Source of the DNA: Candidatus Saccharimonadota bacterium
GTDB taxonomy: Bacteria > Patescibacteriota > Saccharimonadia > Saccharimonadales > Saccharimonadaceae
Reading direction: 5' to 3'
DNA: 32,000 nucleotides
NCBI GenBank assembly: GCA_023898645.1
Contig: CP060232.1
Coordinates: 330,001-362,000 of the forward strand
The notes below the pieces were generated by a model that was given only the letters and a program-made list of their open reading frames with translations, was not told the DNA's origin and searched no databases. The stretch's first letter is position 1; every line of letters starts with the position of its first letter. A program made the position numbers and the translations under genes. This document shows, piece after piece, positions 4,990-31,842 of the stretch.

Positions 4990-5302
4990 GGTTTCAGCAC
5001 ATTTATTCCTTCAATACCTAACGTACCAATGATACGAATGACAGCGTATCGGGTATATGCGAGAGTAATTGTAAGGTGTAAATGAGCCTACCGACAAATG
5101 TCGTACGGGTGCGTCAACAAACTTTCAAATAATATTAATTAATATGAAATTGGTCGACACGCGCCCCTTTCCCACCGTCCAATTGCGAGATGGCGAGAAG
5201 AAAGACAGAGTAAGGTAGAGCCCTTGTAGTAATACAGGCGGCAGGAGAACGATAATTCGTAATCAATCAGTTACGGATGGCGAGATATCGTCAGTCGCCC
5301 GC
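4990..5302 (+). promoter_or_regulatory. Long 5' leader of the LysM-CHAP hydrolase gene; possible cis-regulatory RNA
   Basis: About 310 nt lie between the best promoter and the ATG at 5303, with no credible ORF. It contains the hairpin GATACG..CGTATC (5031-5050), the 14-nt AT palindrome ATATTAATTAATAT (5132-5145), and a duplicated GATGGCGAGA (5189-5198 and 5276-5285). Confidence 0.35.
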
Positions 5303-6403
5303 ATGAAGAGTAAGATTCTTCCTAGTGGAAAGCGTCGAAAGACAAGCAGACCTAAATTAAGTGTATTTGCAGCCTATGGCGGCGTTTTTGTGCTTATCAT
5401 TACCGTAGTCACTATTGGCTACCAGTCTCCACAGCCGTCTGCAGCTGGTGCTACCGTTGCGAACGCGGCGGTCCAGGTACAGTCACCGGTCGCTACTCCT
5501 GAATCAGGCACGCCATCGGTCGACCAGTTAGTTGCCACTAATGTCGCTGCTGGCCTTGCCGAACAGACAAATATGCCTGTTTCTGCCTATGTCGCCAACA
5601 TGTCACAGTCTCTTGCTGCCAAGGATGAGCTCGCCCAGACGAGCGACAGCGCCATTGTAAAGCCACAGATAGTCCAGCCAACGGTTGGTAGCCGTGGTAT
5701 AACCACTTACGTCGTCAAACAGGGCGACAGTCTATTGTCGATTGCTTCTAATTTCGGTTTAACGACTCAAACGATTCGCTGGGCTAACAACATGACAAGC
5801 GATTCCGTGGCTGTAGGCAAGAAACTCGTTATTCCACCTGTGAACGGAGTCATTTATAGCGTGCGATCTGGCGATACGATTGCAGGCGTTGCTGCGACTT
5901 ATAGCGCGAACAAAAATCGAGTTGTTTCATATAATAACCTGGAGCTTGGTGGTTTGAAGCCTGGTATTAAAATCGTAATTCCAGACGGAACTCTCCCTGT
6001 TGAACTACGTCCTGGCTATGTGGCGCCTGTGAGCGCGCCAGTGCTAGCACCCTCGACCTTCTATTCGGGTGGTAACGGCTACGCGTTTGGTAACTGTACT
6101 TGGTATGCGTATGCGCGACGTACACAACTTGGACTTCCTGTCGGCAGTAACTGGGGTAATGCCAATACTTGGGATGATTACGCTAGAGCGGCAGGCTTCT
6201 TGGTCAACTCTCGGCCGACTAAGGGTGCGATTCTTGTCGATAACAGTGGCTGGTATGGTCACGTTGCCGTTGTCGAAAGTGTTGCGGCGAACGGTAACAT
6301 TGTCGTCAGTGAGATGAACAACTACGCTTACGGCGGGTTCAATATCGTGGATCGCAGGACTATCACAGCCGGTCAGGCAGCAGCTTACATCTATATTCAC
6401 TAG
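5303..6403 (+). CDS. Secreted or anchored peptidoglycan hydrolase with two LysM domains and a C-terminal CHAP domain
   Basis: 366 aa with an N-terminal basic region and TM/signal segment (LSVFAAYGGVFVLIITVVTIG). There are two LysM repeats (YVVKQGDSLLSIASNFGLTTQTIRWANN...; YSVRSGDTIAGVAATYSANKNRVVSYNN...). The CHAP signature is FGNCTWYAYARR...GHVAVVESV...SEMN. Confidence 0.85.
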   Translation: MKSKILPSGKRRKTSRPKLSVFAAYGGVFVLIITVVTIGYQSPQPSAAGATVANAAVQVQSPVATPESGTPSVDQLVATNVAAGLAEQTNMPVSAYVANMSQSLAAKDELAQTSDSAIVKPQIVQPTVGSRGITTYVVKQGDSLLSIASNFGLTTQTIRWANNMTSDSVAVGKKLVIPPVNGVIYSVRSGDTIAGVAATYSANKNRVVSYNNLELGGLKPGIKIVIPDGTLPVELRPGYVAPVSAPVLAPSTFYSGGNGYAFGNCTWYAYARRTQLGLPVGSNWGNANTWDDYARAAGFLVNSRPTKGAILVDNSGWYGHVAVVESVAANGNIVVSEMNNYAYGGFNIVDRRTITAGQAAAYIYIH

Positions 6404-6446: not shown

Positions 6447-7781
<1,335 letters not shown>

Positions 7782-7789
7782 AATAAAAC

Positions 7790-8114
7790 TGATATGTGGG
7801 GTATTTAAACCGGTACCATATTCAGTGGCTGTTGGTTCGTTGCATGAAATGTGACGGATGAAAATCGTTGACTAACAGCCTATAAACTTCCCGGAGGTTG
7901 TCGACCGCTGAGCTAATCGCGAGAATCGACGATCATGAGGGAGAACCCCCGCAGGGTTACGAGAAAACAGTTGCTACGAGGGTAGACGAGTAGGTAAGGA
8001 AACTTACCGATAAGGAATACTCGTCTGCTCACACTGCTTTCCGTACCCTGCGGGGCAAACTACTTCTCAAGCTCAATGCTTGAAATGGGCGACCAAATGG
8101 TCGCCCTTATTTTA
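7790..8114 (+). ncRNA. Candidate structured ncRNA of about 320 nt, class unassigned
   Basis: No plausible ORF. A long-range helix pairs 7946-7961 with 8042-8055 (about 15 bp with one bulge). It encloses helix 7985-7992/8018-8025 and a GGTAAG-GAAA-CTTACC GNRA hairpin (7993-8008). A separate helix pairs 7827-7833 with 7874-7880. The unit ends in an intrinsic terminator. Confidence 0.45.
8087..8114 (+). terminator. Rho-independent terminator
   Basis: GGGCGACC-AAAT-GGTCGCCC stem-loop (8087-8106) followed by TTATTTTA. Confidence 0.7.
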
Positions 8115-8126
8115 TAGCAAAATATA

Positions 8127-8155
8127 TTGACAAAGTAATACTATAGTGATATAGT
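8127..8155 (+). promoter_or_regulatory. Near-consensus sigma70 promoter (TTGACA-17 nt-TATAGT)
   Basis: TTGACA at 8127-8132, a 17-nt spacer, and TATAGT at 8150-8155. It lies immediately after the previous terminator. Confidence 0.6.
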
Positions 8156-8161
8156 AATAAT

Positions 8162-8811
8162 GAAAATCAGTTGAGATATGTAATAGATCCTGATTGGAAC
8201 ATTGAAAAACTGAACATGTTTTACTCGTATCGAGGATCGCTTTTTGTGCATAGTTCGTGCACAGTAAGCGACCCTCGAAAGTGAGTGGGTTGCATGAAGA
8301 TGGAAAACCCTCGAAAGGAGCAGGATGCTTCGATTGATCGTTTACGATAGTAGTTGCTCTACGTAGCAACCTGACTGGTTGATCGGAACTTCCTCGTAGT
8401 GAAGTTTCGTCGTAATAATAGGGTTTTGGCGGTTGGAAAGCATTTCCGCGCCATTGGTGTAGACCCCCTGGCTGACTTCTGAGCCTCTAGAACCGGTACT
8501 AAGATTTCCGGGGATACGTTCGAAGCAGTATTGCAAAATGCAACCATTCACGGAGTACAACTTCATACAGTACAACTTAATATAGTTGGGGGCTGCGGTA
8601 CGGTATTGCCTTGCCGCCCCCCATAAACTTCTGCCTCGGCCAGCCTAGGGCTCGCCTTGAGGACGCAGCAAGAGGATGTGCTATGCCAGTTGAAGGAGCG
8701 CCCATTTCGTATGGTGTAGAAGTCGGATTACCGACGGAATCTCCTTTCTCGCGTAGTGCATATGTATGTTCAGCTTTTTTACCCCGCCCTCGTGGCGGGG
8801 TTTTCGCTTTC
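8162..8811 (+). ncRNA. Candidate large structured ncRNA of about 650 nt, class unassigned
   Basis: Bounded by its own promoter and a strong terminator. Only short, non-ATG, low-quality ORFs occur on either strand. Many helices are visible: 8231-8242/8266-8277 enclosing 8246-8250/8258-8262; 8353-8358/8365-8370; a GC-rich helix 8588-8598/8614-8622; and 8722-8735. Direct repeats are ACCCTCGAAAG (8271 and 8307) and AGTACAACTT (8554 and 8569). Confidence 0.5.
8782..8811 (+). terminator. Rho-independent terminator
   Basis: CCCCGCC-CTCGT-GGCGGGG stem-loop (8782-8800) followed by TTTTCGCTTTC. Confidence 0.75.
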
Positions 8812-8838
8812 TCGAACTAATCCGTTATTATAGGAGGA

Positions 8839-10275
8839 ATGGCGACGACTTTTTTCTTTTATGACCTAGAGACGAGCGGGCTGTCTGGCCGCGATGACCG
8901 CATTATGCAGTTCGCCGGCCAGCGGACAGACATGAATCTCAAACCGATCGGTGAGCCTGTTAACGTGCTCGTAGCGCTGAATGACGACACGCTCCCAAGT
9001 CCTGATGCCTTGATGGTTACTGGTATTACGCCGCAACAGACGGTTGCTGACGGCTACACGGAAGCGCAGTTCGCAGACATTATCCTCAAAGAGATATTTA
9101 CCGAGGGAACGATTGCTGTTGGCTACAATAATATTCGTTTTGATGATGAATTTGTTCGTCATTTATTGTGGCGAAATTTTCGTGATCCGTACGAATGGAG
9201 CTGGCGAGAAGGTCGTTCTCGTTGGGATTTACTCGACGTCGTGCGTATGACGCGAGCTTTACGTCCAGACGGAATAAAATGGCCGGTTGTTGATGGCAAG
9301 CCAACGAATCGCTTAGAGCTTGTCACAAAGGAGAATGGCATCGACCACTTTAAGGCGCATGATGCCTTAAGCGATGTCGAGGCATTGATTGCCGTTACGC
9401 AGCTAATCAAGGAAAAACAGCCGCAACTATATGATTATTTACTCAAAATGCGCGACAAGAAAGAGGTAAAAAAGCTCGTCAATTTAGACGACAAGCAACC
9501 GTTTGTATATACGAGTGGCCGCTTCGACGTCGAGTTCCACAAAACGACAGTAGCATTTCCGCTTACTGCCGGAAAGAATGGAAATGTGGTCACGTATGAT
9601 CTTCGTTACGATCCAGAGCCGTTTATAAATCTTGACAGCAAGGAGTTGGCAAAGAAATTGTATGCATCGTGGGAAGAACGCAAGACAGAAGGTTTCGTGC
9701 CGTTACCCGTCAAGGAGATGCAATATAATCGAGCACCGTCGGTGGCGCCTCTTGGGGTACTAGAACAGGGCGATGGTTGGGCTCGAGTTGGGTTAGACAA
9801 AGAGACTATAGAAAGACATCGTAATGCGCTATTAGCAGCACCGCATTTTGCTGAAAACATACGTACTTTGTTTGAAAATAAACCTGAATATAAAAAATCA
9901 TCAGAACCTGAGGCGCAGTTATACGATGGCTTTTTAAGTGATGCAGATCGTCTTCGTACTCAGGCGGTTGCCGTGGCGGACGAAAAAACACTCGCCGATA
10001 TGCATCCTGAATTTCAAGATGAACGCTTGGTTCCACTCTTGTTGCATTACAAGGCACGAAGCTTTCCTCGTAGTTTGAGTGTGGATGAATCTGTAGCTTG
10101 GGAGCAATGGAGGGTGCAGCGCATACAATCGCAGCTGCCTTCATTTGTTAAATCTATAGAGCGACTAAGCAAGCAGGGACTAACAAATCAACAGCAGTTC
10201 GTGTTGCAGGAAATACAGCTATGGCTAGCAAATGTCGCTCCGAGTGATTCAGGAGACGAAACAGAATCTAACTAG
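8839..10275 (+). CDS. sbcB: Exodeoxyribonuclease I (DEDDh 3'-5' ssDNA exonuclease)
   Basis: 478 aa. The N-terminus FFFYDLETSGLSGRDDRIMQFAGQRTD matches ExoI Exo-I motif. It also has GYNNIRFDDEF and HDALSDV (Exo-II and Exo-III). Length and C-terminal domains are typical of SbcB. Confidence 0.9.
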   Translation: MATTFFFYDLETSGLSGRDDRIMQFAGQRTDMNLKPIGEPVNVLVALNDDTLPSPDALMVTGITPQQTVADGYTEAQFADIILKEIFTEGTIAVGYNNIRFDDEFVRHLLWRNFRDPYEWSWREGRSRWDLLDVVRMTRALRPDGIKWPVVDGKPTNRLELVTKENGIDHFKAHDALSDVEALIAVTQLIKEKQPQLYDYLLKMRDKKEVKKLVNLDDKQPFVYTSGRFDVEFHKTTVAFPLTAGKNGNVVTYDLRYDPEPFINLDSKELAKKLYASWEERKTEGFVPLPVKEMQYNRAPSVAPLGVLEQGDGWARVGLDKETIERHRNALLAAPHFAENIRTLFENKPEYKKSSEPEAQLYDGFLSDADRLRTQAVAVADEKTLADMHPEFQDERLVPLLLHYKARSFPRSLSVDESVAWEQWRVQRIQSQLPSFVKSIERLSKQGLTNQQQFVLQEIQLWLANVAPSDSGDETESN

Positions 10276-10562
10276 GTTCGATTGGTGGTTCGTTTCACCA
10301 GCCAGTCACGTTTGGTAATAAGACCGATGATGTAGTCGCGCCTTTGGCGGATAATCGTAATTCTGCGTGCGAGCAACTCGAATAGTACGGCGGATGTTGC
10401 TACCGACATGATGGCAATCATCATGCTAGGTGACAGCGCCGTGCGTGTCAGGGGGATTTCTCCTGCTAGCAAAAAATTCAGTAGCATGTCTTGCACGCGC
10501 AACGTATCTAGTACGAGCCAGACAAAGACTAGAAGAGCGGTTGTGTTGATTATCCTGTGCAT
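10272..10562 (-). CDS. Small membrane protein of about 2 TM helices, unknown function
   Basis: 96 aa with two hydrophobic helices (TALLVFVWLVLDTL and SMMIAIMSVATSAVLFELLA). It has a good Shine-Dalgarno, AGGTGAGG, 5 nt upstream of the ATG at 10562. Confidence 0.55.
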   Translation of the reverse strand: MHRIINTTALLVFVWLVLDTLRVQDMLLNFLLAGEIPLTRTALSPSMMIAIMSVATSAVLFELLARRITIIRQRRDYIIGLITKRDWLVKRTTNRT

Positions 10563-10698
10563 TGCTACCTCACCTCATACAAGTAATTTATTATTAATTT
10601 AGCATATATGTCAAATATATGCAATTATAAGCATGATGAGGTTGCGTAAATACTAAAATTATGAAATAATAACTTCACGTCTATACAACGAGTGGAAG

Positions 10699-10920
10699 GT
10701 GACCGCAGTGGTCTCGAAACAAGAACAGCATCAGTCTGTTTCTCCGAAAGGACGTATGCCAACCTGGACAGGGCTGTTGATAGTCGGCTTAATAATCGCT
10801 GCTGTAGTCATAGGAAGTTACTGTGTCAGCAAATACGGTAGTCCAGCGACGACACCCGACACATCGTGCGATTCATTCGGTATGTGCAGCGGATATCTTT
10901 GGTCTCAATCCGTAGGATAG
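10699..10920 (+). CDS. Small single-pass membrane protein with a Cys-containing C-terminal tail
   Basis: 73 aa from a GTG start; an alternative ATG at codon 20 gives MPTWTG.... It has one TM helix (WTGLLIVGLIIAAVVIGSY) and the tail SPATTPDTSCDSFGMCSGYLWSQSVG. A terminator follows. Confidence 0.4.
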   Translation: MTAVVSKQEQHQSVSPKGRMPTWTGLLIVGLIIAAVVIGSYCVSKYGSPATTPDTSCDSFGMCSGYLWSQSVG

Positions 10921-10945
10921 ATCGTTCCGTACTGGGCTAGGCGCA

Positions 10946-10981
10946 AGCGCCATCTAACCTTTGTGGTAGATGGCGCTTTTT
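10946..10981 (+). terminator. Rho-independent terminator lying between convergent genes
   Basis: AGCGCCATCTA...TAGATGGCGCT forms a perfect 11-bp stem (10946-10977) followed by TTTT. It sits between the stop of 10699..10920 (+) and the stop of 11023..13185 (-). Confidence 0.7.
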
Positions 10982-11022
10982 CATATGTGCACTTGATATG
11001 CTTTTTAAACGAGAGTATTTGT

Positions 11023-13185
11023 TTATAGAATTGGCCTGCTGTCAGGGGAGTCGCCTGTGTCGTTCTGAGTTGGCGCCTGAGTTGGTGTTGGAGTCGGAAC
11101 GGGGGTTGGGTTAGCAATAGGTTCAGTAGGTTCAGTAGGTTCAGTAGGTTCGACGGTAGGTGGGGTTGTAGGCTGAGTGCAAGGTACTTTCTTTTCAACG
11201 GTGGTGGTAGTGCTACAGTTTGAGAGGACGCCACAGACGTTAATAACGCTCGTAACTGTACTATTGCTACAGTTTGACAGAGTGCCGCAGAGGCTTATGA
11301 AACCACTGTTGGTGCTACCGCTACAGTTTGATCCTACGCCACAGACTACGAATGCGCCATTGTTGGTGCTACCGCTACAGTTTGATCCTACGCCACATTT
11401 TACAATGCCTGCGTCATTAGTGCTGTTGTTGCAGTTTGATCCTACGCCACAACTAACGACTGCGGCTTTGTTCGTGCTACCGCTACAGTTTGATCCGACT
11501 CCGCAGCTGACGACGCCTCCCTTGTTGGTGCTGTTGCTACAGTTTGAGCCTACGCCGCAAGTCACGACACCACCTTTATTAGTGCTACCGCTACAATTGG
11601 CTGCTACTCCACAGTCGACGAAAAGGCCGGCATTTGTGCTGTTGCTACAGTTGGCGCCAAGTGTACAGGTGTTCACAACACCGGTATTTGTACTGTTGCT
11701 GCAATTACCAGCTACACAGCCGTTTAGGATGGCGGTATTTGTACTGCCGCTGCTATTACCGCCTACATTGCTGTTTACTGCACCTACATTCTTGCTGCCG
11801 CTACTGTTGTTGCCAATGTTGCTGTTTACCGCTCCTACGTTTGTACTGCCGCTGCTATTACCGCCAATGTTGCTGTTTACCGCTCCTACGTTTGTACTGC
11901 CGCTAGTATTGGATCCGGCGTTACCGTTTACTACGCCAACATTCGTACTACCGCTACAGTTGGAGCCCAGACAGACGTTTGCTAGAGCGACATTTGTCTG
12001 ATCGCTACAGTTTGCACCGTTTGCGCAAATGTTTAGCCATCCAACGTTAGTTTGGTTGCTACAATCTTGTCCGGCTAGGCAGGTGTTGACGCCCACCACG
12101 CCCAGAGCTCCCTGGGCTACCTGAGTAACTCCAGCTGCTGCAGTGGTTAAGCCGCTTTGTACGGCGGCAGAATTACCTGTTACCGCACCGACTACAGCTG
12201 TGCCTAATCCGGAGATACTATTAGCAATACCTTTACCAATCTTTAAAAGGTTAGAGAAGAAGCCGACGAGTTTTACGTCAGATGATCCTGACGCAAGCGC
12301 AACATTGATGTCTGGTGCTCCTGAGGCGACAGCTACGCTCACATTGGCAGAAGCTGAAGTGGCTGAAACTGTGTCGCCACTTGCTGTTGAAGCGACTGTC
12401 GAAGATTTGCTGAGTGCGTTCTTAAGTATGGCTATCTGAGATTTCGACATTGCCGATATAGCAGCTAGGTTTTGCTTAAGATGATCTAAGTCGTACTGGA
12501 TGCTTTTTAACGAAACGAAGCCAGCGGAACCGAGGTTGATGTGTGTGGCGCCGTTTGATTTGGCGGCTTTCATTGTTTGCTGAAGTGTGTCAATCGTGCT
12601 CGCGAGTTTTTTGCTGAATTTAACCTGATGTTGTTGATCAGCAAGTAGCTGAGCTAATTCATTGGCAGGTTTGTATTGTTTAAATTCGAGGTCAATATAA
12701 TATACGACGGCGTTTATTTGCGCAGGGTCTGAACCGGCGTCATCGAGTGCGTTCTTGAGGGCGGTAAGTGACTGTTTTGTTTGGCTCAGAGCTGAATCTA
12801 TCTTGTTTTTGACAGTTGTAGCGTCTGACGAGACATTCTTAATGATCTTTTGATCAGCCTCAATAAAAGCAAGCCTTCGGTTGATTTCGGCGGTTGCCTT
12901 GGCTTTCAAAGAGGTGGGGCTAGCTGATTTATCAGATGCTAACACCACTTGTTGCTCATCGACAGCTTGAAAGGAGCTTCGATGTAATTGGAAGTTTACG
13001 ATATTGGCATCGTTTGCGTCCTTTAAGCTTTGTTTAATGGCTACCGGAGAGACCATTTTGAGTTTTGCAACGCCAGGTTTGGGTACCAGGTATGTCCATG
13101 AAACATAGGCTACACCCACCACTAACAGTAATCCGACAATGATACTGACAAGTACTAATGGGCTTTTGAGTTTGGCTGGAAGCAT
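11023..13185 (-). CDS. Membrane-anchored Cys-ladder solenoid-repeat protein (paralog 1), unknown family
   Basis: 720 aa. It has an N-terminal signal anchor (LVLVSIIVGLLLVVGVAYV) and a helical region at aa 90-260 that is paralogous to the neighbouring gene (AKSNGATHINLGSAGFVSLKSIQ). A Gly/Ala/Val-rich segment follows, then 17 tandem 17/18-aa coils (aa 369-669) and a Pro/Thr-rich tail. Confidence 0.85.
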   Translation of the reverse strand: MLPAKLKSPLVLVSIIVGLLLVVGVAYVSWTYLVPKPGVAKLKMVSPVAIKQSLKDANDANIVNFQLHRSSFQAVDEQQVVLASDKSASPTSLKAKATAEINRRLAFIEADQKIIKNVSSDATTVKNKIDSALSQTKQSLTALKNALDDAGSDPAQINAVVYYIDLEFKQYKPANELAQLLADQQHQVKFSKKLASTIDTLQQTMKAAKSNGATHINLGSAGFVSLKSIQYDLDHLKQNLAAISAMSKSQIAILKNALSKSSTVASTASGDTVSATSASANVSVAVASGAPDINVALASGSSDVKLVGFFSNLLKIGKGIANSISGLGTAVVGAVTGNSAAVQSGLTTAAAGVTQVAQGALGVVGVNTCLAGQDCSNQTNVGWLNICANGANCSDQTNVALANVCLGSNCSGSTNVGVVNGNAGSNTSGSTNVGAVNSNIGGNSSGSTNVGAVNSNIGNNSSGSKNVGAVNSNVGGNSSGSTNTAILNGCVAGNCSNSTNTGVVNTCTLGANCSNSTNAGLFVDCGVAANCSGSTNKGGVVTCGVGSNCSNSTNKGGVVSCGVGSNCSGSTNKAAVVSCGVGSNCNNSTNDAGIVKCGVGSNCSGSTNNGAFVVCGVGSNCSGSTNSGFISLCGTLSNCSNSTVTSVINVCGVLSNCSTTTTVEKKVPCTQPTTPPTVEPTEPTEPTEPIANPTPVPTPTPTQAPTQNDTGDSPDSRPIL
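11121..11154 (-). repeat. 9-bp in-frame tandem repeat encoding (TEP)n in the Pro/Thr tail
   Basis: GTTCAGTAG occurs 3 times in perfect tandem (11121-11147), followed by a degenerate copy. It translates on the minus strand as PTEPTEPTEP. Confidence 0.9.
11179..12081 (-). repeat. Coding tandem-repeat array: 17 units of 51/54 bp (17/18 aa)
   Basis: The coils follow C-x4/5-C-S-x-S-T-N-x-G-x-x-x-x. The 42-nt perfect copy GCCAATGTTGCTGTTTACCGCTCCTACGTTTGTACTGCCGCT occurs at 11812-11853 and again at 11863-11904, a 51-bp offset. Confidence 0.9.
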
Positions 13186-13231
13186 CTTATATTACCTTTT
13201 ATTAATTTGTATACATTATGTTGTTAAGCTA

Positions 13232-15877
13232 TTAATTCATCTCGTGCCGTACGCTAAAGGAAGAAGAAGCAGTGGTAAAGCTTGCAAGCAACGGCAACGT
13301 ATTACGGCTGTCAGGAACGTAGGCTACTGAAGTGTCCACTAGGCACTGATTGACGACGACAGTTTTGATTGTAGTACTACAATTGGACAACAGGCCGCAG
13401 CTATATATAGGGTTATTAGTCGTAGTGTTACTACAGTTTGATCCCAGTCCGCAGAGGCTTAAGAAGCTATTGGTAGTCTCACCGGTGCAGTTCGAGGCAA
13501 CACCGCAAATCGAGAGTGCGCCATTGTTCGTCTTGCCGGAGCAGTTAGAGGCAAGACCGCAAACCATAACACCCTCGTTATTTGTAGAATTTGAGCAGTC
13601 TGATAGTGTGCCACAGAGACTCGCAACACCACTATTGATAGCATTTGAGCAGTTAGACAACGTACCACACCTTTGAACTAGGCCGTTATTGATAGCATTT
13701 GAGCAGTTAGACAACGTACCACACTTTTGGTAGACGCCGTTGTTCGAAATATTGTAGCAGTCGGACAGTACGCCACACTTTAGTATGAAGCCGTTGTTTG
13801 TGCTGTCGGTGCAGTTTGAACCTATGCCACATTTTTGCACGATACCGTTGTTGACTGCATTCGTACAGTTAGACAGTAGTCCACATACCTGTACTTTGCC
13901 ATTATTAATCGCGTCAGTGCAGTTAGACAGCGTACCGCATCTCTGGTAAACCCCGTTGTTTGTGATGTTAGAGCAGTCAGACAGGGTGCCACACCTCATC
14001 ACAACGCCGCTATTCATGGCATTCGTACAGTTAGACAACGTGCCGCATGTCTGTACAACACCGCTATTAATTGCATTTGAGCAGTTCGATAGCGTGCCAC
14101 ATGCTTGGTAGACGCCGTTGTTCGTAATGTTCGTACAGTTAGACAGCGTTCCGCACCTTAGTATGAAGCCGTTATTTGAACCGTCCGTGCAGTTAGAGCC
14201 GACACCACATTTCTGTATGAGGCCATTGTTGACTGCATTCGTACAATTAGACAACGTACCGCATACCTGCACGACACCGTTGTTAATCGCATTGGCACAG
14301 TTAGACAGCGTACCGCATCTCTGGTAAACCCCGTTGTTTGTGATGTTAGAGCAGTCAGATAATGTTCCGCATCTTAATAACACACCGTTATTCGTATCGT
14401 CAGTACAGCTTGATCCGATGCCGCATGTCTGTACGCCACCATTGTTTGTATTTCCGCTACAAATCGATGCCACGCCGCAGTTTACAAATACACCATTGTT
14501 AGTATTATTAGCGCATTCAGACAAAAGACCGCACGATAATGTACCGCCGTTGTTAATGGCATTAGAACACTTAGATAATGCGCCGCATACTTGTATGAGG
14601 CCTTTGTTGATATCGTCAGAACATTTAGACAATGTGCCGCATGATTGGTAGACACCGTTGTTCGTAATATTAGAGCAGCTAGACAATGATCCGCATTTCA
14701 ATATAAATCCATTATTTGTATTGTCCTTGCAGGTTGACAGTGTTCCGCACTTCAGTATGACACCATAATTTATAGCATCGGTACAATGAGATGCTGATCC
14801 GCATAATTCTACTATGCCTTTGTTGACAGCATTAGAGCAGTTAGACAACGTGCCGCACTTTTGGTAAGCGCCGTTATTTGTGATATTCGAGCAGTTAGAC
14901 AAACTGCCGCATCTTAGAACAAATCCGTCGTTCGTGTTATTTTTACAGTTCGATCCTAGGCCGCACGTCTCTGAGACGCCGCTATTTGAGTTGTCTGTAC
15001 AATTAGCTCCTATGCCACAAGCTGTTATATAGCCATAATTTGTATTACCGTTGCAGTTTGATCCCAGTCCGCAGATGCTGACCCCGTATCTGTTTCCTGT
15101 CACCAGGTTGCTCAATTGACTAAGGCCAAGTCCTGTATTTGTGAGAGTGTTTTGAGCAACGGATAGTTGATTGAAAACAAGTGCCGCCTGGTCGGTTGAT
15201 GGGTTGGTCAGCTCGTCCCTAATCAATATAGATAATGAAGACGATATGCTTTGTTCAACGGTTGTGCTTGTTTCGAGTCCTTGCCTCAGCGCGTTTAATT
15301 GAGTCTGAATGGTCTGAAGTGGGACAAAGCCTGCGACACCTCCGTTGACGTGAGTCGCTCCATTCGCCTTTGCTGCGTCAATGGATTTTTGAACTGAAGC
15401 TGCAGAATCCTTTAGCTTAGTAATAAGCTGATTCTGTAAGTGCAAATCATTAAGTAACGTAGACGACTGATTGACTGCTGCGTATTTATTAAAATTAGAA
15501 TCAACCTTTGAAGCTATGTCCTTGAGTACTTTTGTATTACTGGCATCAGTGTTGTCTACTTTGCTTAGCAGATCGGTCAGATCTTTTTTGACTGAATTTA
15601 GGTCAGACTTTAGTTTCTCTAGAGTGGCATTTGGAACGTCGTGTTCGGAATCAACGAGTTTTAAATCGGCGTTAATGGTGTTTAGCCGACGTCCTATTTC
15701 CGTAGTGATTGAAACTGACAAATTTACGTCAACGGCTGTCGACGGAGCGACGGCCAGAGCGGGTACTACGCTTTGACCTGCTATGACGACTGCAGAAAAC
15801 AAGGCGAATGCCGATTGAATAAACTTGCGATTAATGTGAAGGATTGATTGTTGCATAGTCATTACCTTATTTATCAT
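13232..15877 (-). CDS. Secreted Cys-ladder solenoid-repeat protein (paralog 2), unknown family
   Basis: 881 aa with a Sec-type signal peptide (FIQSAFALFSAVVIAGQSVVPALA|VAPS) and a helical region paralogous to paralog 1 (AKANGATHVNGGVAGFVPLQTIQ). Exactly 32 uninterrupted 18-aa coils span aa 269-845. The true start may be Met8 (ATG at 15856), which has AAGG 8 nt upstream. Confidence 0.85.
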   Translation of the reverse strand: MINKVMTMQQSILHINRKFIQSAFALFSAVVIAGQSVVPALAVAPSTAVDVNLSVSITTEIGRRLNTINADLKLVDSEHDVPNATLEKLKSDLNSVKKDLTDLLSKVDNTDASNTKVLKDIASKVDSNFNKYAAVNQSSTLLNDLHLQNQLITKLKDSAASVQKSIDAAKANGATHVNGGVAGFVPLQTIQTQLNALRQGLETSTTVEQSISSSLSILIRDELTNPSTDQAALVFNQLSVAQNTLTNTGLGLSQLSNLVTGNRYGVSICGLGSNCNGNTNYGYITACGIGANCTDNSNSGVSETCGLGSNCKNNTNDGFVLRCGSLSNCSNITNNGAYQKCGTLSNCSNAVNKGIVELCGSASHCTDAINYGVILKCGTLSTCKDNTNNGFILKCGSLSSCSNITNNGVYQSCGTLSKCSDDINKGLIQVCGALSKCSNAINNGGTLSCGLLSECANNTNNGVFVNCGVASICSGNTNNGGVQTCGIGSSCTDDTNNGVLLRCGTLSDCSNITNNGVYQRCGTLSNCANAINNGVVQVCGTLSNCTNAVNNGLIQKCGVGSNCTDGSNNGFILRCGTLSNCTNITNNGVYQACGTLSNCSNAINSGVVQTCGTLSNCTNAMNSGVVMRCGTLSDCSNITNNGVYQRCGTLSNCTDAINNGKVQVCGLLSNCTNAVNNGIVQKCGIGSNCTDSTNNGFILKCGVLSDCYNISNNGVYQKCGTLSNCSNAINNGLVQRCGTLSNCSNAINSGVASLCGTLSDCSNSTNNEGVMVCGLASNCSGKTNNGALSICGVASNCTGETTNSFLSLCGLGSNCSNTTTNNPIYSCGLLSNCSTTIKTVVVNQCLVDTSVAYVPDSRNTLPLLASFTTASSSFSVRHEMN
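13343..15073 (-). repeat. Coding tandem-repeat array: 32 units of 54 bp (18 aa), no indels
   Basis: Consensus coil is CGTLSNCSNAINNGVVQx. A 37-nt perfect copy occurs at 13634-13670 and 13688-13724, a 54-bp offset. A 62-nt perfect copy occurs at 13920-13981 and 14298-14359, a 378-bp offset equal to 7 coils. Confidence 0.95.
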
Positions 15878-15878
15878 T

Positions 15879-16142
15879 TCATTCAGCTAACTTAACTTGT
15901 TTTTCGTCAATTGCATCCGTGGCTTTGATGTGAGCATCAGATTCTTTTTTTGCCGTGTCGTTTGCATTAACTAGGCTTTTTTGGATGACTTTGGGAGCTA
16001 CCAGTTTGGTACTCGTTGGTTTATTGGCATTCAAATAGGTTAAAGTGACGAACGTGACCCCCGCTATTAAGAGTAGTCCTATGACGATACCGCCTGATAC
16101 ATATGGGTTTTTGAGTTTGGCTAGAAACTGCCTCATATCCAA
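15879..16142 (-). CDS. Small membrane-anchor protein homologous to the N-terminus of paralog 1
   Basis: 87 aa. AKLKNPYVSGGIVIGLLLIAGVTFVTLTYL...VIQKSLVNAND...IDEKQVKLAE aligns with paralog 1 residues 4-85 (AKLKSPLVLVSIIVGLLLVVGVAYVSWTYL...AIKQSLKDAND...VDEQQVVLAS). Its TGA stop is 1 nt from the next ATG. Confidence 0.7.
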   Translation of the reverse strand: MDMRQFLAKLKNPYVSGGIVIGLLLIAGVTFVTLTYLNANKPTSTKLVAPKVIQKSLVNANDTAKKESDAHIKATDAIDEKQVKLAE

Positions 16143-16193
16143 CTTTCTTTACTGTTATTCTACCCTTACACGCTTTTGCTTATACTAGGTAAA

Positions 16194-16221
16194 TTATACA
16201 TGCCCAAATATCCGTGTCAAC
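16194..16221 (-). promoter_or_regulatory. Consensus sigma70 promoter for the solenoid-protein operon
   Basis: On the minus strand, TTGACA (16221..16216), a 16-nt spacer, and TATAAT (16199..16194). This gives a leader of about 45 nt before the ATG at 16142. Confidence 0.6.
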
Positions 16222-16376
16222 GATTCTAGTGCTCTTTAATAATCTTTTGGGTGTAATTTTGTCGGGTGTCGTCACTAAATCAGTTAATATTGTACGTCAA
16301 ACACGAAAGCCATGTACTTGCTAAGTTGTTTTACCTACTGGAATAAAACATAAAAAAACTGTATAATATTCAGGTT

Positions 16377-19193
16377 ATGCCAGAGGTAATACGTGTTACT
16401 GGCGCGCGTGAACACAACTTGAAGAACATCAACGTTGAAATTCCGCGCGACAAACTAGTCGTCATCACAGGGCTGTCCGGTTCGGGCAAGTCCTCGCTTG
16501 CGTTCGACACGATTTATGCCGAAGGCCAGCGACGCTATGTCGAGAGTCTTTCTAGCTATGCACGGCAATTTCTTGGCACCATGGACAAGCCCGACGTCGA
16601 TCAGATTGAGGGTTTAAGTCCTGCTATTAGTATTGATCAAAAATCTACTAGTCGTAACCCTCGTTCGACCGTGGCGACCGTTACTGAAATCTATGATTAC
16701 ATGCGTTTATTATTTGCGCGCATCGGTGTGCCTCATTGTCCAATTGACGGTCAAGCGGTGCAGCGCAGGACTCCGCAAGATATCATCGACACAGTGCTGC
16801 AGTATGACGATGGCAAGCGTTTGATGATTATGTCACCTATCGTAAAAGATAAAAAAGGCGAATTTGCGCACATACCGGAACAATATCGTCGCCTTGGCTT
16901 TGCGCGCGCCCGAGTGGACGGCGTAGTATATGCGCTTGATGAGTTTCCGGAATTACAAAAGAATTATAAACACAACATTGAAATTGTTGTTGACCGCATA
17001 GCAATAAGCGATGACATGAAAGGCCGGGTATCGCAGTCTGTAGAGCAAGCGCTCGATATCGGTGGTGGTATTGTCGAAATATTACGAGTCGATGACGATG
17101 AAGTGGATGTGTATTCGCAACGCTATGCCTGCGTGGATCATCCTAACGAAGAGATTCCTGAGCTTGAGCCGAGACTGTTTAGTTTTAACGCGCCACAAGG
17201 TGCTTGTCCGGTTTGTACTGGACTAGGTAGTCGTCTAGAAGTCGACCCTGATCTTGTCTTTAACCCAAATTTGACCATCAGCGAGGGGGCTATCCGTCCG
17301 TATAACCGAGTAAATAGTGACGCTTGGTATATGAAACGTTTAGCGGCGGTTGCCGACAGGCACGGATTTAGTCTGAAAGTGCCAGTGCGTGAATTGTCGG
17401 ACGAGGCGTTGCAAAAAATATTGTATGGCACGGGTGAAGAAACGTATACCGTTAGCATCGGCGAGGGACGTTCGTATACGTCAACATACGAGGGCGTCAT
17501 CCCGAATCTAGAGCGCCGACATAAAGAAACAGACAGTGATTTTATGCGTCGTGATATTGAGCGGTTTATGCGTGAACGTGAATGTCACGCATGTCGTGGT
17601 GCTAGGTTAAAGCCTGTGGTTTTGGCAGTGACAGTACATGACAAAAACATCATGGATATCTGCCGTCTTGCCGTCGATGATGCGCTAAATTTCTTTAATA
17701 ATAAATTCAAACTGACCGAGCAAGAAAAAATTATTGCAAATCAGATTCTCAAAGAAATTGTTGCCAGACTTAGCTTCATGAGCAATGTCGGTCTGACGTA
17801 TCTTGAGTTGACGCGCGCGGCGAATACACTCAGTGGTGGTGAGGCCCAGCGTATTCGCTTGGCAACGCAGATCGGTAGCGGCTTGCAGGGTGTGCTATAT
17901 GTACTCGACGAACCGTCAATCGGCCTGCATCAGCGTGATAATGACCGCTTGATTGAAACATTGAAGCACCTACGCGATCTTGGCAATACTGTTTTGGTCG
18001 TTGAACACGACGAAGACACGATTCGTCATGCGGATTACCTACTTGATATAGGTCCCGGCGCGGGTGTTGCGGGTGGAAATGTCGTGGCTGCTGGTACGCC
18101 AGACGAAGTTGCTAAAAATCCTGACAGTATTACTGGCCGCTATTTGGCTGGCGTCGATAAAATTGCTGTACCTAAAAAGCGTCGCGTCACGAATAAAGAC
18201 AGACGGCTCATCGTAAAGGGCGCGCGCGAGAACAATCTCAAAAACATCGATGTTGTATTTCCGCTTGGCGTCATGACGGTTGTCAGTGGCGTGAGCGGTA
18301 GCGGCAAGTCGACGCTCGTTAACGATATTTTGGCAAAAGAGCTATCTGCTCGATTGCATCGTAGTCAGGAAGTGCCCGGCCATCACGATAGCATCGAAGG
18401 CATAAGTCAGCTCGACAAAGCGATTGTCATCGATCAGTCGGCCATCGGTCGCACCCCACGATCAAATCCCGCTACCTATACTGGTGTCTTTACTCCTATT
18501 CGTGAATTATTTGCCAGCACTCCCGAAGCTAATATTCGTGGCTACAAAGCTGGTCGATTCAGTTTTAACGTTAAGGGTGGCCGTTGCGAAAATTGCCAGG
18601 GTGATGGCGTTATCAAAATCGAAATGCACTTTTTGCCAGATGTTTATGTTACATGTGACGTATGCCATGGCAAGCGCTATAACCGCGAAGCGCTCGAAAT
18701 CAAATACAACGGTAAGACTATTAGCGACGTACTTGAAATGACGGTCGAGCAGGCGGCGGGATTCTTTACTAACATTCCGGTAATAGCGCGAAAACTAGAT
18801 ACTCTTGTTGAAGTTGGTTTGGGTTATATACGTTTAGGTCAGCCGGCCACGACGTTTAGCGGTGGTGAAGCGCAGCGTATTAAGCTTGCAAGTGAACTTA
18901 GCCGACGAAGCACTGGCCGTACTATGTACATACTCGACGAACCAACGACCGGTCTTCATAGCGCTGACGTGAAGCGCTTACTGACAATTTTGCAAAAACT
19001 TGTTGAGGGCGGCAATACCATGGTTGTCATCGAACATAATCTTGATGTCATTAAGACAGCTGATTACATCATTGATATGGGGCCCGAGGGCGGTAATGGC
19101 GGTGGTCAAGTAATTGCCGCTGGTACGCCAGAAGACATAACGAAAGTAGCAAATTCGTTCACTGGCGAATACTTGAAGTCACTCGTAAAATAA
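16377..19193 (+). CDS. uvrA: Excinuclease ABC subunit A
   Basis: 938 aa with the N-terminus [55 protein letters not shown]. It has two ABC ATPase modules, zinc-finger Cys clusters, and the LSGGEAQRI signature twice. Confidence 0.97.
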
Positions 19194-30449: not shown

Positions 30450-30453
30450 CGAC

Positions 30454-31842
30454 ATGGCGGAGATTCGCGATTTTTCACATTTGACTGACCGTCCTGAAAT
30501 AGAGGACAGGTTGTTTCGTAGTGAAGTAGTAGAGGAAGCTATCGAGGACGTATCGATACGAATTCACGACAAAGAACTTCGACGAATGTTTCGGCAGTGC
30601 CTGCCAAATACGCTAGACACAACTACAAGCTATCGTGAGGATGCTGACGGCAAACCAGATACCTTTATTGTAACGGGTGACATACCGGCCATGTGGTTGC
30701 GAGATTCAACTAATCAGGTGTGGCCTTATTTACGATTTGCCAAGAGTGAACCTAAGCTTCAGAAAATGTTCACCGGACTAATATTTCGACAAGCAAAATG
30801 TGTGTTGATTGACCCATATGCCAATGCGTTTGTCGATCCGCACCTAAAGAATCCACCTGAAACTCCTCACTGGCCACACGGTGACAATTGGCATCCCGGT
30901 GTGTGGGAACGAAAATACGAGCTTGATAGTTTGGCGGCTTTTATGCGACTCGTCGTCGGCTACTGTAGAGAAACTGGTGACGAAACGGTTTTGACCGACG
31001 AAGTTTTAGAGGCGATTAGATCAGCGGAAGAGGTTATAAGATCCGAACAAAAGCCCGTTACGCCAAAGAACCTTTCCGGCCTTCACAGAGCGATCATGCC
31101 AAACGGAGAACCTTTTCGTGTTGGGCGCGGTGAGTTGTTTGGCTATGGTGAACCAGGGTGGGGCGATGGCTTGAGTCGTAATCTTTTCCGTCCGTCGGAC
31201 GACGAAGCTGAACTGCCGTATCTTATACCAGCAAATGCCATGGCGACCGTTGCCCTAAACGGTATTTCCAGGGTACTTAAGTCGGTAACAAATGAAAGCG
31301 AATTGGCGTACGAAAGCGGCTTGCTCGCTCGAAATGTATACGAGGGCATAAAAAAGCATGGCTTTACTAATCATCCCAAATACGGCAGAATCTTTCGGTA
31401 TGAAACCGACGGATTTGAATCGCAACGGTTGATGGACGATCCAAACGTACCGAGTTTGTTGAGCTTATCATATCTTAATTTTTGCGAATCGACAGATCCG
31501 ACGTATCTAGCCACTCGAAGTTTTATTTTGAGCCGCGACAACCCGTATTACGCAAGGGGCAAGTACGAAGGGCTTGCTAGTCCGCACACCGGTTTGGGTC
31601 GTTTTTGGCCGATCGCGACCATTATGCAAATCATGACAAGTAATGACGATGCAGAAATCAGGTCGTGTTTGAAAACATTGAAAGAAACGCACGATGGTAC
31701 ACACTTTATGCACGAAGCAATTAATGTGAATGATCCGAGTGATTATAGCCGTCCATGGTTTGGTTGGGCGAACTCATTGTTTGGTGAGATGATTTTGGAT
31801 TTAGCTGAGCGGAAGCCAGAGGTTTTAGTGGGAGAGATTTAG
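30454..31842 (+). CDS. Glycoside hydrolase family 125 (DUF1237) exo-alpha-1,6-mannosidase-like protein
   Basis: It carries the signature [18 protein letters not shown] together with [14 protein letters not shown] near the C-terminus. I moved the start to the ATG at 30454 (MAEIRDF...) because the track's 30289 start overlaps the upstream gene. I see no signal peptide. Confidence 0.85.

What the first reader, a model, noticed from the sequence alone, without database searches (positions are those of the whole stretch)
11023..16142. Operon of two paralogous cysteine-ladder solenoid-repeat envelope proteins plus a detached anchor module
Three co-oriented minus-strand genes sit behind a consensus promoter (TTGACA-16-TATAAT, 16221..16194). 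They are an 87-aa membrane anchor, an 881-aa signal-peptide protein and a 720-aa signal-anchored protein. The two large proteins share a helical N-region (AK[SA]NGATH[IV]N.G.AGFV.L[KQ][ST]IQ) followed by long arrays of 17/18-residue coils, each with two Cys spaced C-x5-C. That gives 65 Cys in paralog 2 and 27 in paralog 1. I recognise no Pfam-type family. By analogy with established folds, an 18-residue coil made of three hexads (CGxxSN / C[ST]NxxN / NGxxxx) matches the left-handed beta-helix period, and a per-coil C-x5-C pair recalls the disulfide-bisected 12-residue coils of Tenebrio antifreeze protein. The signal anchor and signal peptide together place a long, rigid, disulfide- or Cys-ladder-stabilised rod on the cell surface. 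In a reduced-genome and possibly epibiotic organism, that would be a candidate adhesin, spacer or host-interaction fibre. The structural and functional readings are inference. The repeat architecture is directly visible.
Basis: partly seen in the sequence, partly recalled or inferred. Interest (0 to 1): 0.9.

Follow-up and report, generated by a model that had tools for sequence, protein, structure and literature searches.

The report
Cysteine-stapled beta-solenoid surface fibres, Saccharibacteria
A small operon in an uncultured Saccharibacterium (TM7) encodes two very rare, uncharacterised membrane-tethered proteins in which a helical stalk carries a long rod of 18-residue turns, each with a cysteine pair; they are most likely cell-surface fibres for contact with other cells, but no function has been shown.

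Summary
Three co-oriented minus-strand genes follow a perfect TTGACA-16-TATAAT promoter. A is an 87-aa N-in membrane anchor. B is an 881-aa Sec-signal protein with 32 exact 18-residue coils and 65 Cys spaced strictly 6/12. C is a 720-aa self-anchored paralogue with 27 Cys.

No Pfam, NCBIfam, PDB or phage-record match reaches significance, apart from one weak hit to an unannotated PHROG family. Searches of 5.8 billion clusters and 1.84 billion representatives gave about a dozen relatives. All with usable context are in Saccharibacteria, inserted between uvrA and sbcB. Sixty-six related genome loci lack it.

AlphaFold2 predicts a helical stalk plus a three-stranded beta-solenoid (pLDDT 70-84).

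The detached anchor is real. A small anchor gene precedes B-type genes in four relatives, and is fused in C and its orthologue. Stand-alone stalk homologues elsewhere also follow a small anchor gene.

Cysteines occur only as C-x5-C pairs plus one odd C-terminal Cys, which favours one intra-coil disulfide per rung (inferred).

The best reading is a fast-evolving, length-variable surface fibre or adhesin. Function is untested. It is a new variant of a known kind.

The parts
16193..16220 (-). Sigma-70-type promoter TTGACA-16 nt-TATAAT upstream of gene A
   Evidence: 12/12 consensus match, the only perfect site in 10500-16500; sequence verified. Function not tested.
15879..16142 (-). Gene A: small type-II (N-in) membrane anchor, 87 aa (85 aa from ATG 16136), no Cys; TM helix at aa 19-37 (16032..16088) and a ~50-aa extracellular helical tail
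   Evidence: ORF; hydropathy peak 2.39. 45% identical to C aa 4-84. Homologous small genes directly precede B-type genes in L001 (twice), L002 and L071.
15752..15877 (-). B signal peptide (aa 1-42, ...VVPALA|VAP)
   Evidence: n-h-c layout. Q35, A40 and A42 (the AxA site) are invariant across homologues; hydropathy. Cleavage is inferred.
15074..15745 (-). B helical stalk domain (aa 45-268), including the AAKANGATHVNGGVAGF motif and LGLSQLSNLVTGNR, which leads into the solenoid
   Evidence: AF2 predicts long helices 48-260 at pLDDT about 50-67. Conserved motifs. Homologous to stand-alone ~250-aa secreted proteins.
13346..15073 (-). B beta-solenoid: 32 coils x 18 aa (aa 269-844), consensus C-G-x-[LAG]-S-N-C-x-[NG]-x-T-N-N-G-h-h-Q-x, about 15 nm if the rise is 4.8 A per coil
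   Evidence: Exact 6/12 Cys spacing. Logo from 173 coils. AF2 gives three strands per coil at pLDDT 70-84. Coordinates verified.
13235..13345 (-). B C-terminal tail (aa 845-881), starting with the odd 65th Cys and carrying the ...LPL... motif conserved at the C-terminus of B-type proteins
   Evidence: Every family member has n Cys pairs plus one terminal Cys. Alignment. AF2 predicts it as disordered.
12931..13185 (-). C N-terminal fused anchor module (aa 1-85; TM at aa 10-28), paralogous to A
   Evidence: BLASTP E=7e-15; hydropathy 2.96. The same fusion occurs in orthologue P0008.
12406..12918 (-). C helical stalk (aa 90-260) with the AAKSNGATHINLGSAGF motif
   Evidence: AF2 helices at pLDDT up to 81; alignment A3.
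12094..12405 (-). C Ser/Ala/Thr/Gly-rich linker (aa 261-364), specific to C-type proteins
   Evidence: pLDDT 22-31, disordered or low-confidence helix. Also present in P0008.
11182..12093 (-). C beta-solenoid (aa 365-668): about 17 coils and 13 C-x4/5-C pairs, with a central block of four 17-aa Cys-less coils inside 11719..11955 (that stretch also takes in the end of the preceding Cys-containing coil)
   Evidence: AF2 pLDDT is 69-84 throughout, including the Cys-less coils.
11026..11181 (-). C tail (aa 669-720): the odd 27th Cys followed by a Pro/Thr/Glu-rich extended segment
   Evidence: AF2 predicts it as disordered.
10946..10977 (.). 11-bp perfect hairpin (10-nt loop) just downstream of C; the T-run lies on the + strand and an A-run precedes it on the - strand, so it may be a bidirectional terminator
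   Evidence: Read directly from the sequence. The scan missed it because the loop exceeds 8 nt.

Best explanation
A-B-C is a clade-specific operon of an environmental Saccharibacterium (TM7, Saccharimonadaceae-like) encoding membrane-tethered cell-surface fibres. Both large proteins are exported by Sec. Each has a roughly 200-residue helical stalk followed by a rigid three-stranded beta-solenoid rod of 18-residue rungs: about 15 nm in B and about 8 nm in C. Each rung is probably stapled by one intra-rung disulfide between Cys1 and Cys7, with Asn, Ser and Gly at the turns. B is released from its signal peptide and held at the membrane non-covalently by the co-translated small anchor A. C is the same device with the anchor fused on. 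The distal ends are a single unpaired Cys plus a short divergent tail in B and a Pro/Thr-rich tail in C. These ends are the candidate contact or cross-linking sites. The most likely role is adhesion or spacing in cell-cell contact with a host bacterium or with sister cells. Shown here: gene structure, repeat regularity, rarity, synteny, the anchor/stalk gene pairing and fusion, and the predicted solenoid. Inferred: disulfides, A-B docking, surface display and the adhesive function.
For: Architecture: searches give the ORFs and the 32 exact coils. Searches give the AF2 solenoid (pLDDT 70-84, three strands per coil), the helical N-domains and the TM helices. Export: the AxA signal peptide is conserved, and A and C have TM anchors. 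Anchor-stalk coupling: a small anchor gene sits immediately upstream of B-type genes, often with overlapping stop and start, in L001 (two pairs), L002 and L071. The anchor is fused in C and in P0008. Stand-alone stalk homologues in three contexts (L070, L072, L073/L074) also follow a ~101-aa TM gene. Disulfide reading: all Cys lie in the solenoid and none in the stalk. They occur only as C-x(4-6)-C pairs plus one terminal Cys. The coils on either side of the Cys-less blocks in C and P0008 keep both Cys, so intra-coil pairing leaves one free Cys whereas inter-coil pairing would leave three. Surface or host-contact flavour: A/B/C are only 33-46% identical between genomes whose flanking Obg, ExoI and UvrA are 72-90% identical. 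Coil number varies from 8 to 32. The closest fold matches are self-associating autotransporter adhesins, Ag43. The operon is an insert between sbcB and uvrA that is absent from 66 related Saccharibacteria loci. Saccharibacteria need several adhesins for epibiotic growth (PMC10633639).
Against: There are no expression, localisation or binding data. AF2 confidence is only moderate (mean pLDDT 63 and 56; MSA of 8-11 sequences) and the stalks are poorly predicted. The A-like helix in the C model has pLDDT about 33, so the model does not show docking. All Foldseek matches are weak: none reaches E<=1e-3. No thiol oxidase (DsbA/VKOR) lies in the window. Handedness rests on a prediction. The rod shows no recognisable ligand-binding domain.
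Confidence: 0.5

Rival explanations
1. A structural envelope element rather than an adhesin: a palisade, spacer or S-layer-like coat that sets envelope thickness or protects the small cell, with the rods acting as rigid struts.
For: The same architecture evidence applies. Both paralogues are membrane-tethered. No ligand-binding domain was detected. The stand-alone anchor+stalk pair sits at a conserved housekeeping locus (ATP synthase ... Dus) in three independent contexts, which suggests a basic envelope role for the ancestral module.
Against: A core envelope component should be widespread, yet the solenoid-bearing genes are absent from 66 related Saccharibacteria loci and from 185,579 species-representative genomes by pattern scan. 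Fast divergence and length variation fit interaction proteins better.
Confidence: 0.2
2. A thiol-rich metal-binding or redox protein: the C-x5-C pairs are ligands for metal ions or act as a redox buffer, and are not structural disulfides.
For: There are 32 regularly spaced Cys pairs in an exported protein. No Dsb-type oxidase lies in the window. Activated-sludge habitat.
Against: No His, Asp or Met co-ligand is conserved in the coil logo. Four coils in C and several in P0008 lack Cys yet are still predicted to keep the solenoid. This behaviour fits structural staples that can be lost. Known Cys-per-coil solenoids (Tenebrio and midge AFPs) use internal disulfides (PMC13080227).
Confidence: 0.05
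3. A host-membrane-active device: the helical N-domain is a ClyA/AhlB-like alpha-pore-former or membrane-inserting module delivered on a rod.
For: Foldseek gives weak matches of the N-domain to ClyA, SmhB and AhlB/C (probability 0.12-0.2). Stand-alone homologues carry a strongly hydrophobic 19-22-residue segment with hydropathy 2.1-2.8.
Against: The matches are within noise, and BAR and spectrin bundles score alike. In B-type proteins the equivalent segment is only weakly hydrophobic, and in B itself it falls below threshold. The helical domain is at the anchor-proximal end, not the distal end.
Confidence: 0.05
4. An ice-, mineral- or lattice-binding protein analogous to insect disulfide-braced antifreeze solenoids.
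For: The i/i+6 Cys pair per coil matches Tenebrio AFP, and the surface is regular and rich in Asn, Ser and Thr.
Against: There is no TxT or TxTxT array in the logo and no AFP family hit. The coil is 18 residues rather than 12. Relatives come from activated-sludge metagenomes. Membrane tethering is atypical for AFPs.
Confidence: 0.03
5. Not real genes: an assembly artefact or decaying pseudogenes, with A and B being a frameshifted single gene.
For: A and B lie in different frames, 1 nt apart.
Against: The split anchor-plus-large-gene layout recurs in four independent assemblies. B has its own conserved signal peptide. The repeats have diverged: median unit identity is 56% and the longest exact repeat is 62 nt. 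Long intact ORFs are conserved at protein level.
Confidence: 0.02

Closest known systems
Self-associating autotransporter passenger domains (Ag43, PDB 4kh3/7kob/7koh; also pertactin and Fap2)
   Same: A long three-stranded beta-helix rod with about 18-20 residues per rung, displayed on the cell surface as an adhesin. These are the best Foldseek matches to the B model (E 0.02-0.1, probability 0.96-1.0, target TM-score up to 0.46).
   Different: No sequence similarity and no Pfam AIDA, Pertactin or autotransporter beta-barrel hit. There is no translocator domain, and tethering is by an N-terminal helical stalk and a separate or fused TM anchor. There is one Cys pair per rung. The E-values are not significant.
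Tenebrio molitor / Dendroides antifreeze proteins (12-residue disulfide-bisected right-handed beta-solenoid) and midge AFP (10-residue disulfide-braced)
   Same: Two Cys per coil at i and i+6 in a very regular, right-handed solenoid (properties of TmAFP as summarised in PMC13080227).
   Different: The coil is 18 residues with three faces, not 12. There is no TCT/TxT ice-binding ladder. The protein is bacterial, membrane-tethered and 32 coils long. No sequence or PDB-profile match.
Left-handed beta-helix / hexapeptide-repeat proteins (LpxA, GlmU; Pfam Hexapep)
   Different: No Hexapep hit even at E<=1. GlmU appears only at rank 31 with probability 0.03 for the C model and not at all for B, while right-handed helices dominate. 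LbH proteins are cytoplasmic enzymes, and these are exported fibres.
Phage tail-fibre-like protein P0012 (1617 aa, metagenomic) and PHROG family phrog_15341 (unknown function)
   Same: P0012 has 18-residue coils CGTTTNVGxVxNCxxxxT with the same 6/12 Cys spacing. It matches the solenoid profile at E=2.7e-10. phrog_15341 matches both B (E=4.4e-6) and the P0012 coil region.
   Different: The domain context is different (phage tail-fibre repeats, FN3 domains), with no helical stalk or anchor. tblastn of B finds nothing in 50,697 phage records. Homology versus convergence of the coil is unresolved.
Stand-alone anchor + secreted helical protein pairs of Saccharibacteria (P0013, P0014, P0021 and others; L070, L072, L073)
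   Same: A homologous helical domain (profile E 1e-9 to 1e-4), preceded by a ~101-aa TM gene of the same architecture as A.
   Different: No solenoid and no Cys. A strongly hydrophobic segment near residue 180-205 replaces the link to the solenoid. They lie at a different conserved locus next to dus. They are also uncharacterised, with no Pfam family.

Membership tests
Hexapeptide-repeat left-handed beta-helix (Pfam PF00132 Hexapep) | Sequence match to the hexapeptide profile [LIV]-[GAED]-x2-[STAV]-x | tested here: not met
   hmmscan against Pfam at E<=1 returns no Hexapep hit for B or C.
Hexapeptide-repeat left-handed beta-helix (Pfam PF00132 Hexapep) | Left-handed triangular beta-helix fold | tested here: not met
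   The best Foldseek matches to the AF2 models are right-handed beta-helices. The only LbH entry (3twd GlmU) is at rank 31, probability 0.03. This rests on a predicted model.
Insect TmAFP-type antifreeze protein | 12-residue coil TCTxSxxCxxAx with a TxT ice-binding ladder | tested here: not met
   The coil is 18 residues, and the logo shows no TxT array. There is no AFP family or PDB-profile hit.
Insect TmAFP-type antifreeze protein | One internal disulfide per coil between Cys i and i+6 | tested here: inconclusive
   C-x5-C occurs in every canonical coil. Coils have both Cys or neither, and the boundaries of the Cys-less blocks favour intra-coil pairs. S-S distances could not be read from the model, and there is no biochemistry.
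Type V autotransporter adhesins (Ag43/AIDA/pertactin) | C-terminal outer-membrane beta-barrel translocator and an autochaperone | tested here: not met
   No autotransporter, AIDA or pertactin Pfam hits. The C-terminus is a 37-52-aa disordered tail. Anchoring is at the N-terminus.
Type V autotransporter adhesins (Ag43/AIDA/pertactin) | Right-handed three-stranded beta-helix passenger | tested here: inconclusive
   Ag43 structures are the top Foldseek matches, but E is 0.02-0.1 and target TM-score 0.31-0.46. This is a fold-class resemblance only.
Sec-exported protein with a type I signal peptide | n-h-c region with an AxA cleavage motif | tested here: met
   B aa 16-42 ...NRKFIQSAFALFSAVVIAGQSVVPALA|V. 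Q35, A40 and A42 are invariant in 8 homologues. Hydropathy peak 1.99. Cleavage itself was not tested.
Sortase-anchored LPXTG surface proteins | C-terminal LPXTG followed by a hydrophobic segment and a basic tail | tested here: not met
   The C-termini carry ...LPL... but no LPXTG, no C-terminal hydrophobic segment and no basic tail.
Phage tail-fibre proteins | Match to annotated tail-fibre families or phage genome records | tested here: not met
   B matches only phrog_15341 (unknown function, E=4.4e-6), and C matches none. tblastn against 50,697 phage records gives no match. The operon sits in chromosomal housekeeping context.
ClyA-family alpha-pore-forming toxins | Significant fold or sequence match of the helical domain, with a hydrophobic head hairpin | tested here: not met
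   Foldseek probability is 0.12-0.2 at E 0.5-2. There is no sequence hit. B lacks a hydrophobic segment beyond its signal peptide.

The most novel reading that the evidence does not exclude
This would be a previously undescribed two-component surface organelle of Saccharibacteria. An ancestral, lineage-wide 'small anchor + helical stalk' module has in one subclade acquired a new disulfide-per-rung beta-solenoid, a coil type otherwise seen only in a phage tail-fibre-like protein. The result would be length-tunable rigid fibres whose free distal cysteine and tails mediate specific, possibly covalent or redox-sensitive, attachment of the epibiont to its host cell.
Probability: 0.25. Interest if true: 0.75.

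Novelty: new variant of a known kind. Interest (0 to 1): 0.6.

Why it matters
Saccharibacteria and other Patescibacteria live attached to host bacteria. Genetics in cultured strains shows that several adhesins are needed for this (PMC10633639), but few of the molecules are known and most surface proteins of the group are unannotated. This locus gives a concrete, testable candidate.

It is a fast-evolving, patchily distributed, membrane-tethered rod whose length differs between close relatives. It is also an unusually clean natural beta-solenoid: 32 perfect 18-residue rungs, each with a Cys pair. That makes it interesting for protein-fold classification and as a design scaffold.

The analysis also exposes an uncharacterised anchor+stalk gene pair, seen in three further contexts, that may be a basic envelope module of the phylum.

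Tried and rejected
- **Curated family scans.** Pfam, NCBIfam and PHROGs gave only sub-threshold or compositional hits. CetZ_C scored 19.4 bits against a 21.6 cutoff, and Apolipoprotein, SMC and DUF948 hits were all far below cutoff. I rejected them as noise.
- **PDB sequence-profile search.** Nothing below E=0.3.
- **Pattern scans with the family alignment.** No confirmed relative in 185,579 species-representative genomes or in JGI metagenome contigs. Being pattern-based, these scans could miss divergent members.
- **Phage records.** tblastn of B against phage records found no match.
- **Repeat-only hits of the exhaustive profile search.** Apart from P0012, these (P0010, P0011, P0015, P0016, P0020, P0025-27 and others) are unrelated Cys- or Gly-rich eukaryotic-type or junk repeats.
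- **A+B as one frameshifted gene.** Rejected because the split layout and B's own signal peptide are conserved in four assemblies. TGA read-through was also considered: the frame hits TAA four codons later.
- **Collapsed-repeat artefact.** Rejected.
- **Knotted-solenoid paper (PMC13123833).** It concerns Brevundimonas pentapeptide-like proteins and is irrelevant.
- **Literature searches.** Searches for Saccharibacteria cysteine-rich, beta-helix or disulfide surface proteins found no description of this family.
- **Stalk docking.** AF2 did not give a confident model of the stalks or of the A-like helix docking, so the docking idea remains genomic inference only.


Full report
**1.

The minus strand of 11023-16142 carries three co-oriented ORFs:
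- A: 15879..16142, 87 aa from TTG. An ATG at 16136 is the likelier start.
- B: 13232..15877, 881 aa.
- C: 11023..13185, 720 aa.

A perfect TTGACA-16-TATAAT promoter lies at 16220..16193. It is the only 12/12 match in the region.

B has 65 Cys and C has 27. In B the Cys-Cys spacings are 6,12,6,12... with no exception across 32 consecutive coils of exactly 18 residues. C has about 17 coils of 17 or 18 residues, and four central coils lack both Cys.

The array is not an assembly artefact:
- The 54-nt units have a median identity of 56%, and the best pair is 91%.
- The longest exact internal repeat is 62 nt.
- There is an old duplication at a 378-nt (7-coil) spacing.

**2. Source organism and context**

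The flanking genes are housekeeping: ftsA/pilM-like, ruvX, yceG, a LysM-CHAP hydrolase, obg, sbcB/ExoI, uvrA, L25, ksgA, uvrC and others.
- ExoI is 70-81% identical to Candidatus Saccharibacteria / Saccharimonadaceae MAGs.
- The Rfam lysM-TM7 RNA sits at 5086-5247.

**3. Rarity and distribution**

| Search | Result |
|---|---|
| Word-indexed search of 5.8 billion protein clusters, query B | 6 homologues (519-588 aa, 37-45% identity, unnamed, no Pfam) |
| Exhaustive profile search of 1.84 billion cluster representatives | 3 more true members: P0007, P0008 and fragment P0009 |
| Pattern scan of 185,579 species-representative genomes | nothing |
| Pattern scan of JGI metagenome contigs | nothing |

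In most of the 66 related Saccharibacteria loci recovered through ExoI, sbcB, a small membrane-protein gene and uvrA are directly adjacent. None of the 66 encodes a relative of A, B or C.

The window and three independent metagenomic contigs carry the operon as an insert of about 5.6 kb at that spot:
- L071: anchor, a 759-aa B-type gene, then a C-type gene. This is the same layout as the window.
- L002/L003: anchor followed by two B-type genes.
- L001: two anchor + B-type pairs.

Between these genomes Obg, ExoI and UvrA are 72-90% identical, but A, B and C are only 33-46% identical. Canonical coil number ranges from 8 to 32. The cassette is fast-evolving, length-variable and patchily distributed.

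**4. No known family**

- Pfam and NCBIfam give nothing above cutoff. The best hit, CetZ_C at 19.4 bits, is below its own threshold and compositional.
- A PDB sequence-profile search gives nothing below E=0.3.
- tblastn of B against phage records finds nothing.
- PHROGs gives one weak hit, phrog_15341 (unknown function, E=4.4e-6).
- Literature searches found no description of such proteins in Saccharibacteria.

**5. Predicted structure**

AlphaFold2 was run with the small family alignment.

For B:
- a signal peptide;
- long helices over aa 48-260, at pLDDT about 50-67;
- a regular solenoid over aa 266-835 with three short strands per 18-residue coil, at pLDDT 70-84;
- a disordered tail.

For C:
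- a TM helix at aa 9-33;
- an A-like helix at aa 47-77, at low confidence;
- a helical domain at aa 90-259;
- a disordered Ser/Ala-rich linker;
- a solenoid over aa 365-655, at pLDDT 69-84, which includes the Cys-less coils;
- a disordered Pro/Thr tail.

Foldseek finds no significant PDB or BFVD match; none reaches E<=1e-3. The best matches are right-handed beta-helices:
- Ag43 self-associating adhesins (E 0.02-0.1, probability 0.96-1.0, target TM-score up to 0.46);
- pertactin, tailspikes, polygalacturonases and alginate epimerases.

A left-handed hexapeptide protein appears only once, at rank 31 with probability 0.03. The fold class (a three-faced beta-helix rod) is therefore supported. The left-handed analogy is not.

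**6. The cysteines**

Over 173 canonical coils the logo is C1(100%) G2(89) x [L/A/G]4 S5(78) N6(56) C7(100) x [N/G]9 x T11(56) N12(89) N13(61) G14(79) h15 h16 Q17(44) x18.
- In the ten family members checked for this (B, C, P0001-P0008), the mature stalk has no Cys, apart from two Cys in P0008's C-type linker. The solenoid Cys occur only as C-x(4-6)-C pairs.
- In all twelve members there is exactly one further Cys after the last pair, so the solenoid Cys count is always odd.
- Coils have both Cys or neither.
- In C and in P0008, the coils on either side of the Cys-less block each keep a complete pair. Intra-coil C1-C7 pairing therefore leaves one free Cys, whereas inter-coil pairing would strand three.

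Tenebrio AFP gives a precedent for an internal i/i+6 disulfide per coil in a right-handed solenoid (PMC13080227). Together these points favour one disulfide per rung.

**7. The anchor and stalk**

A is a type-II anchor. It has a basic N-terminus, a TM helix at aa 19-37 and a helical tail of about 50 aa. It is 45% identical to C aa 4-84, E=7e-15.
- In four relatives a homologous 91-103-aa gene immediately precedes a B-type gene, often with overlapping stop and start codons.
- In C and its orthologue P0008 the anchor is fused to the large protein. This is a Rosetta-stone argument that A tethers B.
- The profile search also recovered about 20 clusters of stand-alone secreted proteins of about 250 aa, homologous to the stalk only.
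- In all three contexts examined, these too are preceded by a TM gene of about 101 aa with A-like architecture, next to dus and ATP synthase genes.
- These stand-alone proteins carry a strongly hydrophobic segment that B-type proteins have largely lost.

The likely history has three steps. The ancestral unit was an anchor + stalk pair. One subclade then gained the Cys-solenoid. The anchor later fused to the large protein to give C. None of these proteins has a Pfam family.

**8. A related coil elsewhere**

One repeat-only hit looks genuine. P0012 (1617 aa) has phage tail-fibre repeats and FN3 domains. It carries 18-residue coils CGTTTNVGxVxNCxxxxT with the same 6/12 Cys spacing, E=2.7e-10. phrog_15341 matches both its coil region and B. 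Whether this reflects homology or convergence is open. The other repeat-only hits are unrelated low-complexity proteins.

**9. Mechanism and rivals**

My best reading (confidence 0.5):
- These are Sec-exported, membrane-tethered surface fibres.
- Each has a helical stalk, perhaps spanning the wall, and a rigid disulfide-stapled rod. At 4.8 A per rung the rod is about 15 nm in B and about 8 nm in C.
- The distal end carries a free Cys and a divergent tail.
- They serve adhesion or spacing in cell-cell contact.

Rivals:
- a structural palisade or coat (0.2);
- a thiol or metal function (0.05);
- a ClyA-like membrane-active stalk (0.05);
- an AFP-like lattice binder (0.03);
- an artefact or pseudogene (0.02).

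The architecture is well supported. The function is inferred from fold class, topology, evolutionary rate, patchy distribution and the lifestyle of the phylum.

**10. Verdict**

This is a real, very rare, uncharacterised family. The solenoid, the detached anchor and the lack of a family all hold. The left-handed analogy does not. The adhesin role is untested.

I classify it as a new variant of a known kind: a beta-solenoid surface fibre with a Cys pair on every rung and a two-gene anchor/stalk tether. Interest is 0.6.

Noticed in passing
window 5086-5247 (+), upstream of the LysM-CHAP gene 5303-6403: Rfam lysM-TM7 RNA motif (RF03005, 92 bits, E=2.8e-16) sits in the 5' leader of a LysM/CHAP cell-wall hydrolase gene. 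It independently marks the window as Saccharibacteria.
   Followed up: partly
window 7770-8838: About 1.07 kb between obg and sbcB contains no ORF of 110 aa or more and no Rfam family above noise (best E=0.008, MicX, far below gathering). In L071 the two genes are adjacent. It may be a decayed gene or an undescribed RNA.
   Followed up: partly
window 10699-10920 (+) and hairpin 10946-10977: A small ORF (73 aa) has one TM helix and a tail containing Cys (...SYCVSKYG...TSCDSFGMCSGYLW). It is followed by an 11-bp perfect hairpin with a T-run on the + strand, wedged between gene C and the conserved small membrane-protein gene. It is not present at this spot in L071.
   Followed up: no
window 10272-10562 (-); L002 8029-8322; L001 4810-5082; L071 7028-7318: A membrane protein of about 96 aa with no Pfam hit on record in the relatives is syntenic next to sbcB in the closest Saccharibacteria relatives. 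It marks one border of the A-B-C insert.
   Followed up: partly
L070 5699-6774; L072 2694-3753; L073 2063-3237: A conserved two-gene module of unknown function: a ~101-aa TM anchor followed by a ~250-280-aa secreted helical protein with a strongly hydrophobic C-proximal segment. It lies next to dus and ATP synthase genes and is homologous to A plus the B stalk.
   Followed up: partly
P0012 aa about 150-400 (L075 1950-6803): A metagenomic 1617-aa protein with phage tail-fibre repeats and FN3 domains contains 18-residue coils with the same 6/12 Cys spacing. phrog_15341 (unknown function) matches both this protein and B.
   Followed up: partly
window 13346-15073 and 11182-12093 (solenoids of B and C): N-x-S/T sequons are concentrated in the solenoids (27 in B, 23 in C, against 3 elsewhere in each), at coil positions N6-C7-S/T8 and N9-x-T11. 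This may simply reflect composition, or the sequons may be glycosylation sites. No glycosyltransferase was seen nearby.
   Followed up: no
C-termini of B-type proteins (window 13235-13345; P0001-P0006): After the odd terminal Cys, most of the shorter B-type homologues share a short motif, C-x-[VL]-N-S-D-G-x-P. B-type proteins including B also share ...L-P-L... about 6-10 residues from the C-terminus. C-type proteins lack both. Its purpose is unknown, and it is not an LPXTG signal.
   Followed up: no
window 28674-30449 and 30289-31842 (+): The SBP_bac_5 solute-binding protein ORF and the GH125 alpha-mannosidase ORF overlap by about 160 nt as listed. The GH125 Pfam match starts at residue 94, so its true start is probably downstream.
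   Followed up: no
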